From a virus (Duplodnaviria > Caudoviricetes), in the IMG/VR virus record IMGVR_UViG_3300048882_000450, positions 1-42,252 of that record: 42,252 bases of DNA. One strand, 5' to 3'. The position numbers and the translations under genes were made by a program. This document shows, one piece after another, positions 21,138-42,060 of the stretch (positions within the stretch are counted from its first letter, which is position 1; each line of letters starts with the position of its first letter). The notes beneath the pieces were generated by a model that was given only the letters and a program-made list of their open reading frames with translations, was not told the origin of the DNA and made no database searches.

Positions 21138-21313
21138 CCCCGTAACTCTATTATATATGTATCGTAGTTGTATTAATATTTTTTTCCTGTCTGTAACCTC
21201 TTATTTCCCAAAAACTGTTTTTTTTACATGTGTACTGGGTCTCGCTAACTCGTTCCTGATACACTGTGGATTTGTGCCTAGAAGATATATACATTAGTAG
21301 TGCACAGTAACCT

Positions 21314-21687
21314 TGTAAGCGAGGCAATACACCCTCGTGGTCTTGCATTGGGCTTCATTTCCGACATGATTAGGCTTTGACGAGCGTGTTATAGTGTGAA
21401 CGCTTTGAGCCGAAAAGTTTAGGAAATATGAATCACCACTTTGGATTATCTCTTATAGAGTTTCGAGTGGTTACAAAAGTATTCAAGAGGGTATAAAATG
21501 GTGTTATTCCAATCCAGATTCCCTTATGTCAAAATATCTGAGCCCAGCTAGTTAGTCCTTGCCTTTTCGGTGTCTAGTTTAAAGGACTAGAGTAAACTTG
21601 GTCATTAGGGTAAAACCGAAGGTCAAGGGTTAAAGATTGCTACCTAATGGTAGCACGAGTGTGAGCGTACTACTTACACACTTTTTT
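21314..21687 (+). ncRNA. Unidentified large structured RNA candidate (~370 nt)
   Basis: No credible ORF and higher GC than the flanks. TATA-like box at 21285, at least ten helices with many G-U pairs on the + strand, terminal hairpin plus T6. Confidence 0.6.
21659..21687 (+). terminator. Hairpin GTGTGAG/CTTACAC followed by a T-run
   Basis: Read directly from the sequence. Confidence 0.6.
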
Positions 21688-21928
21688 ACTAAACAGTACG
21701 TACTGACAGTCATAAACTCTTATTGAGAATGACTTCAGGCGTACTAGATTGTAATTACTAAAACTATATAGTTCGTACTACGTACGTACGTATGGTTTTT
21801 TGGTAAATATCAACGGTTTAACCGTGCCTAACATCAATCAAAGTTGTTTCATATACAACAATACTTCTAAGGGATTAGACTATACTGTTGTGTTTGGTTG
21901 TGTGTTAGGTGTTTACAAGTTTATAGTT

Positions 21929-22593: not shown

Positions 22594-22942
22594 ACTTGAA
22601 GTACTACTCGTGCCTATTGACGAAGGCATTGAGTTATTAGCAACATGTAATAATGGATTTAGTAGACTAGTCAAAACCATACATAACTATGAAGATGATG
22701 AAGGAGATTTTCCATACAGATACATGTTACAAGAAGACCCACGTGATTATTTATTGCGTTTAGATGACAAAGCAGATTTGTTTTTTATGAGTACATTACA
22801 AGTTCAAACTGCGTATAAAAATAGATATACTCAACCATACTCGAATCAAGAGTTACAAAGTTGGACTAAACAATGTGATTTGAAATACAACTCATTGAAA
22901 CGTAGTTATCTTGAAATAATGGAGATAAATAATGACGAGTGA
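22583..22942 (+). CDS. Hypothetical protein
   Basis: SD AGGAG; overlaps both neighbouring genes. Confidence 0.7.
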   Translation: MEIELEVLLVPIDEGIELLATCNNGFSRLVKTIHNYEDDEGDFPYRYMLQEDPRDYLLRLDDKADLFFMSTLQVQTAYKNRYTQPYSNQELQSWTKQCDLKYNSLKRSYLEIMEINNDE

Positions 22943-23927
22943 CTTTACAGTAGGTCATGAAGTCGAAGGTAATATAAGTAAATCTGATATTATTAGAGGA
23001 GACTTTCATCATGACGGTTCAGTAGATGTAGACGGTAATAGTAGTGAATGTAACGGTAGTTGTAGAGACGACTGTGAATGTCGTGACTACTGTGAATGTG
23101 AAAGTTGTAATATATGTGATATATGTCATGATACATGCGATGCCTGTTCATGTGAAGAATGTCGTACATGTTCTAGATGTGATGAGAATATAGATTCATG
23201 TGAATGTGACATGAGAAACCATTCTAATAATGATTGTGAGTCATGTAAAGTAATACAACTTAAGAATCATGATGAATATCTAGCGTGTGATAAATGTAGA
23301 ACACACTTTATAGACAATGAACATGTATACAACTGTGTAACCAACGATAATATGTCACATGAATGTGACTTTGAATGTGGTTGTGAATGTAATTGTGAAT
23401 GTGATTGCTCCAACGGAGAAGGAGATGATGGAGAGGTAGTTAGTAGAATATTACCTGAAGATGAATCAACTAGTTGGCTTGGTGCTAACGAAGATTCAAT
23501 ACTACGTACTAATAATACATGTGGTCATCACATACATGTAGGTGGAATAACAAACCGTGAGTATGCAGTACTAATGGATGTAGACTTTCACAATACACTC
23601 AAAGAAAAACTGTTAAAGTGGGGACATGAGCATAAACTTAAAGTTGACTCATCATTCTTTAGGAGATTAGAAGGTCATAATAGTTTCTGTAAAGATGACT
23701 TTAGACCACTTGAACAAAAGTATGACACAACAAAGTCAAGCCAAAGATATTGCTTTATCAATTATTGCTGGGCATTACATAGAACAGTAGAGATAAGAGT
23801 GCTCCCAGCATTTCAGAAACCAGAGTTAAGAATCAAAGCAAGTAATAAAGTATTAGAAATAATACATACATACTTGGATGAACACAAACCAAAGATACAT
23901 AGTTTAGAAATCAAGGAGGTGATCTAG
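22932..23927 (+). CDS. Putative amidoligase (COOH-NH2 ligase, Amidoligase_2-like) with a Cys-rich insertion
   Basis: Motifs in the expected order: GHEVE, DGS, EVVS, TCGHHIHV, RYCFIN, TVEIR. Confidence 0.8.
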   Translation: MTSDFTVGHEVEGNISKSDIIRGDFHHDGSVDVDGNSSECNGSCRDDCECRDYCECESCNICDICHDTCDACSCEECRTCSRCDENIDSCECDMRNHSNNDCESCKVIQLKNHDEYLACDKCRTHFIDNEHVYNCVTNDNMSHECDFECGCECNCECDCSNGEGDDGEVVSRILPEDESTSWLGANEDSILRTNNTCGHHIHVGGITNREYAVLMDVDFHNTLKEKLLKWGHEHKLKVDSSFFRRLEGHNSFCKDDFRPLEQKYDTTKSSQRYCFINYCWALHRTVEIRVLPAFQKPELRIKASNKVLEIIHTYLDEHKPKIHSLEIKEVI

Positions 23928-23930
23928 AAA

Positions 23931-24794
23931 ATGTGTGTAATAATGTGTATAGATGATGGTAACTATCCATCAAAGAATGACCTCAAAGATGCAGAGGATA
24001 TGAATAGTCATGGTGGCTCAATCGCATGGTTGAATCATGATAAGACTGTATCATATAAGAAAGGCATCAAAGCAAAACAAATCAATAGAATCATCAACAA
24101 ACAGTTGAAGCCTAAAGGAATTAGCACAGCTATCATTCACTTTAGAATAGCTAGTGTTGGTGGTGTTAAAAAGAATCTCAACCACCCGTTTGAGATTAGT
24201 AGTAAGGTAGAGTTAAACATGGAAGCAAGTCACATAACTAAAGATGTGTTGTTTCATAACGGCACGTGGAGTGAGTACGCTGAAGTGTTAGTGAACTACT
24301 TAAAAGGCTGTAAGAAACCACAAACAATACCAAGAGGTAATTATAGTGACAGTAGAATTATGGCTTACCTTGCACATAAGTTAGGAAGAAATGGTATGAA
24401 CAAACTAGTAACAGGTTGGAATAAGATAGCGATACTATCAAGTAAAGGTATAACAAAGTTTGGTGATGGTTGGTGTAAAGTTAATGGTGTGAAGTGTAGT
24501 AATGATTACTTTACAGGCACAGGCTTCCAATCTTTTGGAACTAAGACAACGTTTAATAAACCATTCAATTACATGACTGAACAAATAACTTATCTTAATG
24601 AAGATGAGAAGTTAGAGATGGTTAACCTCATTGATATATATGGAGTGAGTGAGGAAGAAATATCTGATATGTTATCAGATGGGACAAGTATATATGACAT
24701 AGGTAACAGATTAGATTTGGAAGAAGAATTAATGTTACAGAAACATAGTATAGAAGACGAGGTAATGTATTATAATAAGGGGGAATATAAATGA
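23931..24794 (+). CDS. Class II (Ntn) glutamine amidotransferase-like protein
   Basis: N-terminal MC nucleophile, N.HG, HFRIASVG, NHPF, FHNG and SDSR motifs; GGAGGTGA SD. Confidence 0.85.
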   Translation: MCVIMCIDDGNYPSKNDLKDAEDMNSHGGSIAWLNHDKTVSYKKGIKAKQINRIINKQLKPKGISTAIIHFRIASVGGVKKNLNHPFEISSKVELNMEASHITKDVLFHNGTWSEYAEVLVNYLKGCKKPQTIPRGNYSDSRIMAYLAHKLGRNGMNKLVTGWNKIAILSSKGITKFGDGWCKVNGVKCSNDYFTGTGFQSFGTKTTFNKPFNYMTEQITYLNEDEKLEMVNLIDIYGVSEEEISDMLSDGTSIYDIGNRLDLEEELMLQKHSIEDEVMYYNKGEYK

Positions 24795-31919: not shown

Positions 31920-32103
31920 ATTACCTTGGTCAGATAACAAAGATGTTAATATTTTAATTCCTTGTAGACTCTGTTCAAAAGAATCTGTTAGTGTAACAGG
32001 TGCAAAATATTGTTTGGATTGTTATAGGGAACTACTAACCAATGTTATTCTAAAATATTATCCTGTTTCTGGGAAGGATGTTAATGTATCCCAGCGTGAC
32101 TGA
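31912..32103 (+). CDS. Small Zn-finger protein
   Basis: CRLC...CLDC; start MAKLPW after GGTG. Confidence 0.55.
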   Translation: MAKLPWSDNKDVNILIPCRLCSKESVSVTGAKYCLDCYRELLTNVILKYYPVSGKDVNVSQRD

Positions 32104-32482
32104 ACGCCTCTATCACCTCACGCATAGAGTCGTCATTCACTAAATCCTTCATAAGATTTGGACAATCATAATGGTTCATGTCTACTACTTTAACGTAATT
32201 CCACTCTAAAGTCTTCTTTTGTACTGTGTCTCTCATAGATGTTATTCTTCCTGTATGATGAGGATCTTGTATCCTTATTGCCATTATTGGATCAGAATAT
32301 ACTACTATGTCTATAGTTTCTTTTTCCTGTCTCCCCGACACTGTGTCCTTCCACTCTTCATTTAGTAGATCTTTGAATTTTACCTGTGTTTTTACTTCTT
32401 TATCTGGGAATAGAGTTATTATCATATCTAATGCTGCATATTCTCCTCTTCCTATAAAGTTCCCTTGTTTGTCTATTATTAT
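32081..32482 (-). CDS. PD-(D/E)xK/Vsr-DUF559-like nuclease, paralogue of 41662..42060; probable ATA start
   Basis: ETIDIVV...AIRIQD.HH...D..QK..LE. The conserved FIGRGEYAAL lies upstream of the first ATG (32425). Confidence 0.65.
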   Translation of the reverse strand: MIIDKQGNFIGRGEYAALDMIITLFPDKEVKTQVKFKDLLNEEWKDTVSGRQEKETIDIVVYSDPIMAIRIQDPHHTGRITSMRDTVQKKTLEWNYVKVVDMNHYDCPNLMKDLVNDDSMREVIEAFSHAGIH

Positions 32483-41661: not shown

Positions 41662-42060
41662 TTAATCTATTCCTGAGTCTTTCAATACTCTTCTAAGTTC
41701 TTTTTCACTCTTTTCATTTACAAAGTCTTTCCAAAGTTCTACACATTCATAATGCCAAACATCTGCAACCAGCCACCCATTATACTCTAGCATCTGTCTT
41801 TGTATATCATCTATTTGTGCCATTCTTATACTGTTATGATGTCTATCTTGTATTCTCACTGCTATTGGTTTAGTTAAACCAGTAAATACTACTATATCTA
41901 CAGTTTCTTTTTTCTGTCTCTCACTAAATGTAGATAGTGATTCTTCATCAACCATTCTAGTTAGAGGGTATTGTACATCATACTCACATGCCTCGCCAAA
42001 CATATCCTTAATTATGGATAGTGCTGCTATCTCTCCCTGACCTATAAAATTATTTACTAT
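41662..42060 (-). CDS. PD-(D/E)xK/Vsr-DUF559-like nuclease, paralogue of 32081..32482; probable ATA start
   Basis: ETVDIVV...AVRIQD.HH...DDIQRQMLE. FIGQGEIAAL lies upstream of the first ATG (42003). Confidence 0.65.
   Translation of the reverse strand: MVNNFIGQGEIAALSIIKDMFGEACEYDVQYPLTRMVDEESLSTFSERQKKETVDIVVFTGLTKPIAVRIQDRHHNSIRMAQIDDIQRQMLEYNGWLVADVWHYECVELWKDFVNEKSEKELRRVLKDSGID

What the first reader, a model, noticed from the sequence alone, without database searches (positions are those of the whole stretch)
21285..21690. Unidentified ~370-nt structured RNA with its own promoter and terminator, next to an HNH endonuclease
Seen: this is the longest stretch without a credible ORF, and it is more GC-rich than its flanks. 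An ATATATAC box at 21285 puts the start at ~21314 (the 29-nt spacing seen across this genome), exactly where the first helix begins. Helices found by eye: TGTAAG-CGAGG/CCTCG-CTTGCA (21314-21347); long-range TTGGGCT/AGCCCAG (21348-54/21541-47); TCAT-TTCC/GGAA-ATGA; GGCTT/GAGCC; GAGCGT/ACGCTT; ACCACTT/GAGTGGT; CAGAT/ATCTG; TCCTTG-CCTTTTCGGT/ACCGAAGG-CAAGGG; TCTAGTTT/GGACTAGA; TGCTACC/GGTAGCA; and a terminal GTGTGAG/CTTACAC plus T6. A possible pseudoknot pairs GACATGA (21363-69) with the loop TTATGTC (21524-30). Many G-U pairs work only on the + strand. I see no RNase P, SRP or group I/II intron core. Inference: a novel large viral ncRNA, such as a ribozyme, scaffold or decoy. A partner role for the adjacent HNH protein is possible but speculative.
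Basis: partly seen in the sequence, partly recalled or inferred. Interest (0 to 1): 0.85.

Follow-up and report, generated by a model that had tools for sequence, protein, structure and literature searches.

The report
New large RNA of archaeal viruses
A marine archaeal virus has a roughly 375-base non-coding stretch, matching no known RNA family, whose fast-changing counterparts fill the same spot in about 30 related viral sequences while keeping base pairs and RNA-type loop motifs; it is predicted to be transcribed and likely acts early in infection as a protein-binding decoy or scaffold, which is untested.

Summary
The stretch 21314-21687 lies in a tailed virus of marine Thaumarchaeota (marthavirus-like). 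It has a correctly spaced TATA box, a hairpin plus T6 end, no coding signal and no Rfam match. Its own folding energy is only marginal (z -2.0 on +, -2.7 on -), so the case rests on relatives. Of 46 distinct sequences carrying a conserved upstream DNA element, 31 have a 340-540 nt non-coding stretch in this slot and 15 go straight into a protein gene. One direct homologue keeps 39 of 40 pairs of the 5' domain (4 two-sided, 5 one-sided changes). Across the family a 3' module covaries, an A-N-UA/GA(A/G) loop core recurs (10 of 18, 0.17 expected), and GNRA/UNCG loops favour the + strand (19 of 66 against 2 of 49). The RNAs are mosaics of swapped modules. Covariance models trained on other subfamilies did not recover the window's copy. 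The proposed pseudoknot is broken in the homologue. The HNH gene accompanies only 2 of 18 members examined. Expression was not testable. Verdict: likely a new large viral RNA family; early decoy or scaffold is the best guess.

The parts
21220..21270 (+). Family-wide conserved element: T-tract and CCAT, fixed spacer, then ACANTGTGGA, with further T-tracts upstream. Sharp synteny break just downstream. Likely a genome-end, packaging or origin signal (inferred). Not part of the RNA.
   Evidence: 46 distinct sequences, length 49-51; one copy in each of 10 genomes apart from the end repeat of G003, and far from the terminase gene in the 5 genomes tested
21285..21292 (+). Archaeal TATA box of the RNA; predicted start about 21313-21315
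   Evidence: genome-wide spacing peak -26 to -30; TATA-like box 3-17 nt after the element in 27 of 28 members, two of them only as a TAAAT variant
21314..21687 (+). Predicted non-coding RNA, about 374 nt
21314..21347 (+). 5' hairpin (sequence not conserved; L225 and other members have their own 5' hairpin)
21348..21547 (+). 5' domain closed by P1 (21348-54/21541-47), with P2 (21355-62/21422-31), P3 arm (21373-75/21409-11 and 21382-87/21400-05), P4 (21435-39/21467-71) and P5 (21479-83/21533-37, 21488-91/21521-24)
   Evidence: against L225: 30 of 40 pairs unchanged, 5 one-sided, 4 two-sided, 1 broken; 73% identity over 219 nt
21369..21414 (+). Shared core: AUUA/GAA internal loop on a GGC/GYC stem, a variant of the AGUA/GAA bulged-G (sarcin-ricin type) motif
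   Evidence: 14 sequences tabulated; 10 of 18 representatives, 0 on the minus strand, 0.17 expected
21553..21627 (+). 3' domain: P6 (21553-60/21582-89, inferred) and the P7 module with an A-rich internal loop; 25 nt (21600-21624) identical in L215
   Evidence: covariation of the family's 3' module (the window's variant is not in that alignment and was not hit by model R1)
21638..21687 (+). Two terminal hairpins (21638-55, 21659-79) and T6 (21682-87), predicted terminator
   Evidence: a T-run of 5 or more at the 3' end in 22 of 28 members
21696..21744 (+). Second conserved stem with a UAAA internal loop after the T6; possible read-through extension
   Evidence: two-sided changes among window, L225, L017, L005, L215
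21779..21801 (.). TACG palindromic repeat and a second T6 (21796-21801)
   Evidence: the repeat is also in L005, L017, L225, L037
20532..21137 (+). Neighbouring HNH_3 endonuclease with its own TATA box; judged a passenger, not part of the RNA system

Best explanation
This is a predicted 374-nt non-coding RNA gene of a new, fast-evolving family found in one clade of marine thaumarchaeal tailed viruses, and it likely works early in infection as a folded decoy or scaffold that binds host or viral proteins. Shown: the slot, the promoter spacing, the lack of coding, compensatory pairing and strand-specific RNA loop motifs. Inferred: host RNA polymerase transcribes it from the TATA box at 21285 as the first unit of the variable accessory-gene block and stops at the T6; A-rich internal loops (GAAA/AUAA type, AGUA/GAA type) and GNRA loops pack the helices into a compact fold; the hypervariable arms and swapped modules reflect a conflict with the host or with competing viruses. 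Untested: transcription, timing, abundance and any binding partner.
For: Direct homologue L225 keeps 39 of 40 pairs, with 4 two-sided and 5 one-sided changes, all of the one-sided ones through G-U. 3' module in 15 sequences: outer helix 100% paired, 5 of 8 pairs with two-sided changes, 0 of 500 shuffles reach the covariation score. Core motif in 10 of 18 representatives, 0 on the minus strand, 0.17 expected. Own flanks pair better than swapped flanks (32 and 2 of 20000 permutations). GNRA/UNCG tetraloops: 19 of 66 on +, 2 of 49 on -, 6 of 99 in shuffles. z is lower on + than on - in 18 of 22 members (12 shuffles each). The RNA slot maps to one portal clade (12 rows, support 100/99; 11 with the RNA, 1 without). 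Downstream genes have their own TATA boxes in the B-type members inspected, which argues for a stand-alone transcript. 15 of 46 relatives lack the RNA, which fits an accessory role. Shared features are short packing motifs, not a long invariant core.
Against: No transcript evidence. The window's own z is -1.96 and the minus strand scores better; the window's predicted fold has no GNRA loop. Models trained on other subfamilies miss the window: R1 missed its 3' module, R2 missed its core and that of L225, and R3 built from window plus L225 found no other member. The link to the wider family is thus a chain of shared modules, position and a short motif. Held-out R1 hits (L005, L225, L017, L190: 21-29 bits) overlap chance hits inside coding genes (22.7 and 23.7 bits). 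P2 has no fixed register across subfamilies: 37% paired in the first test and 58% in a register chosen after inspection. The GGC/GYC pairs hardly vary and so say little. Eight of 18 representatives lack the core motif. No partner protein was identified; gene co-occurrence follows phylogeny. The metagenome pattern was biased towards the RNA-bearing clade, so 31 of 46 is not a prevalence estimate.
Confidence: 0.42

Rival explanations
1. A cis-acting leader: the nascent RNA folds behind RNA polymerase and controls read-through of T-tract terminators into the early genes, in the manner of phage HK022 put RNA (recalled, not from a call).
For: It sits directly behind a promoter and ahead of the accessory block. 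A second covarying stem follows the T6 without a TATA box of its own. Relative L037 has only short hairpins and then an ORF in this slot.
Against: It is several times longer than such leaders need. Downstream genes have their own TATA boxes in B-type members. The arms are hypervariable and the modules are exchanged.
Confidence: 0.18
2. An origin- or terminus-associated transcript: it opens or primes the adjacent conserved DNA element (R-loop or primer RNA), or helps packaging like phi29 pRNA (recalled).
For: It always lies next to the single conserved element. Contig ends are mildly enriched within 130 nt of the element (8 of 42, 3.0 expected). The virus encodes MCM.
Against: 15 of 46 relatives have the element without the RNA, including two genomes rated 100% complete, so an essential role is unlikely. 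No conserved loop-loop complementarity was found.
Confidence: 0.12
3. A ribozyme of a new class (self-cleaving or processing).
For: It has the size and packing motifs of large ribozymes, and the core motif is conserved while the arms are free.
Against: No Rfam match in the window or in 17 homologous loci. No long invariant core, and 8 of 18 representatives lack the core motif.
Confidence: 0.1
4. Not an RNA: a DNA control region whose palindromic operator sites or single-stranded DNA hairpins mimic RNA structure.
For: ACGCC/GGCGT inverted repeats and TACG palindromes recur in and around the slot, some between a TATA box and the predicted start. The window's own z is marginal.
Against: G-U one-sided changes, long-range P1 pairing, AGUA/GAA loops and GNRA/UNCG enrichment occur on one strand only. 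The TATA spacing and T6 end fit a transcript.
Confidence: 0.12
5. RNA partner or guide of the adjacent HNH nuclease (HEARO or omega-RNA like).
For: The only two lineages with this HNH (window, L215) share an identical 25-nt 3' module found in no other member compared.
Against: 16 of 18 RNA-bearing loci examined lack it, including L225, the closest RNA homologue. L005 has an unrelated 182-aa gene in the same slot. The HNH is a common HNH_3 type without a RuvC match. Window and L215 also share the upstream gene, so common ancestry explains the link.
Confidence: 0.05

Closest known systems
GOLLD and ROOL RNAs (large structured RNAs of bacterial phages and prophages)
   Same: Large, virus-encoded, no known function or protein partner, rich in A-minor type packing. 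[quoted passage not shown]
   Different: No Rfam match; 340-540 nt; archaeal host and promoter; no tRNA in the window; no supported pseudoknot; much lower sequence conservation, with modules swapped between lineages. Multimer formation was not tested.
HEARO / IscB omega-RNA (HNH-associated RNAs; recalled)
   Same: A structured RNA next to an HNH gene in this one genome.
   Different: The RNA lies downstream with its own promoter; the HNH is absent from 16 of 18 loci; no Rfam match; the protein is a 201-aa HNH_3 type.
Sarcin-ricin / bulged-G (loop E) motif
   Same: AGUA/GAA, the motif sequence given in PMC1865062 (passages seen), is exact in 8 of 14 tabulated cores.
   Different: The window has AUUA/GAA, which is not among that paper's four derived sequences. 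The motif sits at the base of a long arm, not under a GAGA tetraloop.
Marthavirus (host virus group)
   Same: The window encodes RadA, a CobS-like AAA ATPase with a vWA partner, MCM and a portal. PMC7678222 names radA, ATPases and CobS as typical marthavirus genes (passages seen).
   Different: No marthavirus reference was available for direct comparison; the original description was not held.
Candidate structured RNAs from IMG/VR (Fremin et al., PMC10690425)
   Same: Same source collection; three candidates carry a Thaumarchaeota host label (DNAVirus_8135, 8230, 8694; supplement table rows seen).
   Different: Those candidates are 29-151 nt. Their alignments (mmc2.zip) could not be read, so overlap with one module of this RNA is not excluded.

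Membership tests
Any Rfam 15 family (would include GOLLD, ROOL, OLE, HEARO, RNase P, SRP, group I/II introns and small ribozymes; their presence in the library is recalled) | Covariance-model score at or above the gathering threshold | tested here: not met
   0 hits in the window; none reaching gathering score in 12 plus 5 homologous loci
GOLLD/ROOL-type ornate RNAs | Multiple covarying pseudoknots | tested here: inconclusive
GOLLD/ROOL-type ornate RNAs | Location near tRNA islands | tested here: not met
   No tRNA in the 42-kb window; the record is about 68% complete
GOLLD/ROOL-type ornate RNAs | RNA-only multimeric cage | not testable with these tools
   Needs cryo-EM or mass photometry
HEARO / omega-RNA | Consistent linkage to an HNH/IscB gene | tested here: not met
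   HNH in 2 of 18 RNA-bearing loci with at least 1.1 kb upstream
HEARO / omega-RNA | Partner protein with split RuvC plus HNH | tested here: not met
   Only HNH_3 and PHROG HNH matches, 201 aa
Group I or II intron | Interrupts a gene, with the conserved catalytic core | tested here: not met
   Intergenic with its own TATA box and T-tract; relatives without it show no rejoined gene at the slot; no Rfam hit
The new slot-RNA family itself | Window copy recovered by models trained on other subfamilies | tested here: not met
   R1 and R2 miss the window; membership rests on blastn links to L225, L215, L017, L005, on position and on the short core motif
The new slot-RNA family itself | Transcribed on the + strand between the predicted ends | not testable with these tools
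Marthavirus | radA, ATPase and cobS with head-tail genes | tested here: met
   features from PMC7678222; a 69% identical portal lies in a Ca. Nitrosopelagicus bin

The most novel reading that the evidence does not exclude
The first large folded non-coding RNA class of archaeal viruses: a modular, recombining RNA made as the first transcript from the genome end, whose fixed packing motifs hold hypervariable arms that engage a host defence or compete with other viruses, possibly as an RNA-only assembly or a new ribozyme.
Probability: 0.3. Interest if true: 0.88.

Novelty: new variant of a known kind. Interest (0 to 1): 0.68.

Why it matters
Large structured viral RNAs such as GOLLD and ROOL come from bacterial phages and still lack a function. 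Four literature searches and four look-ups of this scan's notes turned up no such RNA in thaumarchaeal or other archaeal tailed viruses; subscription papers and the unread IMG/VR alignments remain unchecked. These viruses infect ammonia-oxidising archaea, central to the marine nitrogen cycle. The family offers about 30 natural variants that keep packing motifs while exchanging arms, a direct way to ask what such RNAs do and how RNA domains recombine. The adjacent conserved DNA element is also a candidate for the unknown genome end or origin of these viruses.

Tried and rejected
blastn against 50,697 phage records gave only 23-26 nt chance matches. Motif scans of viral contigs for single hairpins or loops returned known members and matches inside unrelated genes, with no new context. 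A pattern scan of GTDB genomes gave 0. Host homologue: the DNA search of 121 genomes of the family of the Nitrosopelagicus bin gave a best hit inside an eIF2-beta-like gene (annotation from my reading of the ORF), and R1 over 150 genomes gave 0 at E 1e-4 (no positive control); not found in those searched. The R1 hits in a host pelota-like gene and in two viral coding genes are chance. An apparent likeness to L035 was dropped: it lies in an opposite-strand ORF and blastn did not report it. No antisense target in the own genome: no exact 13-mer, three 12-mers. A test of whether the first helix starts at a fixed distance from the TATA box was uninformative. Fixed-register P2 failed and was weak on retest. 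Seven of 53 element-pattern sequences (L180, L183, L189, L194, L195, L203, L204) were dropped as chance by context before the count of 46. L048 was left out of the portal alignment because of a stop codon in the given range. No complex prediction was run.

Full report
Setting. The window is a 42,252-nt virus record, about 68% complete. It encodes a portal, a major head protein, RadA, MCM, and a CobS-like AAA ATPase beside a vWA protein. PMC7678222 (passages seen) names radA, ATPases and CobS as typical marthavirus genes. The nearest annotated portals are from Haloarcula viruses HCTV and HVTV at 22-24% identity; PMC8651126 (passages seen) places that family among marine archaeal viruses. A 69% identical portal lies in a Ca. 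Nitrosopelagicus bin. The host is therefore likely a marine thaumarchaeon.

Checking the observation. The stretch has no coding signal (longest ORF 22 codons, shuffled median 46) and no Rfam hit. Alone it is weak evidence: z is -1.96 on + and -2.66 on -, and ATATATA is as common as chance (33 against 35.6). The promoter reading holds up by spacing: in 323 genes of 10 genomes WTATAW peaks 26-30 nt before the start codon, giving a start near 21314.

The slot. Portal relatives (54 loci) shared the flanks of the RNA but not the RNA. The upstream flank is a family-wide element of fixed length. It occurs once per genome, about 3 kb from the portal start, at the head of a variable accessory block, and far from the terminase in the 5 genomes tested. 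Pattern scans gave 38 viral and 30 metagenome loci. After dropping 7 chance matches, 46 distinct sequences remain: 31 have a 340-540 nt non-coding stretch after a TATA box (3 of them cut by contig ends) and 15 go straight into a protein gene. L052, with a variant element, is one more. The second scan pattern favoured the RNA-bearing clade. On a portal tree of 20 rows, the 11 RNA-bearing rows fall in one clade of 12 (support 100/99) that also holds one RNA-less row.

Direct homology. L225 matches the window's 5' domain at 73% over 219 nt. Over 40 pairs in 8 helices, 30 are unchanged, 5 change on one side (all through G-U), 4 change on both sides and 1 breaks. Unpaired stretches are highly conserved between the two. 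L215 shares exactly 25 nt of the 3' module, L225's 3' part matches L017 and L242 at 85-92%, and L215's 5' part matches L005 at 82%. The RNAs are mosaics of exchanged modules.

Family-level evidence for RNA. In 15 aligned 3' modules the outer helix is 100% paired, 5 of 8 pairs show two-sided changes, and 0 of 500 shuffles reach the covariation score (the tool warns that relatedness inflates this control). The module carries A-rich internal loops of the GAAA/AUAA kind, which resemble the UAA/GAN motif (recalled; two searches found no paper to cite). A core with A-N-UA and GA(A/G) on a GGC/GYC stem occurs in 10 of 18 representatives, in 0 on the minus strand, with 0.17 expected. It is exactly AGUA/GAA, the sarcin-ricin motif sequence of PMC1865062, in 8 of 14 tabulated cores, and AUUA/GAA in the window. 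Own flanks pair better than swapped ones (32 and 2 of 20000 permutations), though only 1 of 11 was best in its row. GNRA/UNCG tetraloops number 19 of 66 on +, 2 of 49 on - and 6 of 99 in shuffles. z favours + in 18 of 22 members; the window and L225 are among the 4 exceptions.

Results against. P2 has no fixed register across subfamilies (37% paired; 58% in a register chosen after inspection). Model R1 found held-out modules of L005, L225, L017 and L190 at the expected place and strand, but at 21-29 bits, the level of chance hits in coding genes, and it missed the window. R2 recovered held-out L012 (E 0.006) but not the window or L225. R3 found no other member. The window's tie to the wider family is therefore a chain of modules plus position, not one significant model hit. 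Eight of 18 representatives lack the core, so more than one RNA type may fill the slot. Transcription is unshown.

The HNH. It is a 201-aa HNH_3 protein with 120 relatives, only two of them close (56-58%). It is present in 2 of 18 RNA-bearing loci examined and absent beside L225; L005 has an unrelated gene in the slot. The two HNH lineages do share the 25-nt module, but they also share the upstream gene, so ancestry suffices. I treat it as a passenger.

How it likely works. Shown: position, promoter spacing, non-coding status, compensatory pairing, strand-specific RNA motifs, absence from related viruses. Inferred: it is the first transcript of the accessory block, ends at the T6 (or reads through a second covarying stem to 21801), and folds compactly. 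What is conserved is packing motifs, while arms vary and recombine. That pattern fits a trans-acting decoy or scaffold under conflict (0.42) better than a cis leader (0.18), an origin or packaging RNA (0.12), DNA-only structure (0.12), a ribozyme (0.10) or an HNH partner (0.05). Overall I put the chance that it is a real transcribed structured RNA near 0.85.

Novelty. It fails membership of every Rfam family and was not found in the host-family genomes searched. It works most like GOLLD and ROOL (PMC12286853, passages seen) but is shorter, archaeal, without supported pseudoknots and far more variable. Searches for a prior report (listings only, plus passages of 10.1101/2025.08.23.671958) found none. 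The IMG/VR screen PMC10690425 (passages and one supplementary table seen) lists three short candidates with a thaumarchaeal host whose alignments could not be read; they may overlap a module. Verdict: new variant of a known kind, interest 0.68.

Noticed in passing
window 21170-21270: Family-wide fixed-length element with inverted half-sites and upstream T-tracts; one copy per genome; contig ends mildly enriched within 130 nt (8 of 42, 3.0 expected). Candidate genome end, packaging site or origin of these viruses.
   Followed up: partly
window 21696-21744; L225:2283-2346; L017:1096-1159; L005:3464-3527: Second covarying stem with a UAAA internal loop after the terminator, followed by TACG palindromic repeats; function unknown.
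   Followed up: partly
L012, L216, L229, L186, L231, about 430-720 nt after the element: Two further TATA boxes in tandem after the RNA, with a conserved hairpin between them that starts only about 10 nt after the first box; it may be an operator or a small read-through RNA.
   Followed up: partly
non-coding control region of many members (e.g. L012, L216, L017; window 21737): Recurring ACGCC/GGCGT inverted repeats inside and outside the RNA, possibly sites for a viral DNA-binding protein.
   Followed up: no
L005:4372-4920 (-): A 182-aa gene that looks like a PD-(D/E)XK nuclease (by eye, not tested) fills the slot where the window and L215 have the HNH; the slot appears to swap nucleases.
   Followed up: partly
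window 22932-24794: Cys-rich 331-aa gene plus a glutamine amidotransferase; both present in 6 of 6 RNA-bearing and 1 of 4 RNA-less genomes, also in RNA-less L037. Resembles phage amidoligase modules (recalled).
   Followed up: partly
L039:6391-6844 (-): The most divergent slot RNA (446 nt, z -3.5); it has neither the core motif nor an R1 hit and may be a separate RNA type.
   Followed up: partly
window 21547-21552 and 21572-21578: Two unpaired CUAG palindromes kept in L225 could pair with each other or between molecules; a candidate replacement for the refuted pseudoknot, seen by eye only.
   Followed up: no
window 32081-32425 and 41662-42003: Two paralogous small ORFs of one family in the same genome.
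   Followed up: no
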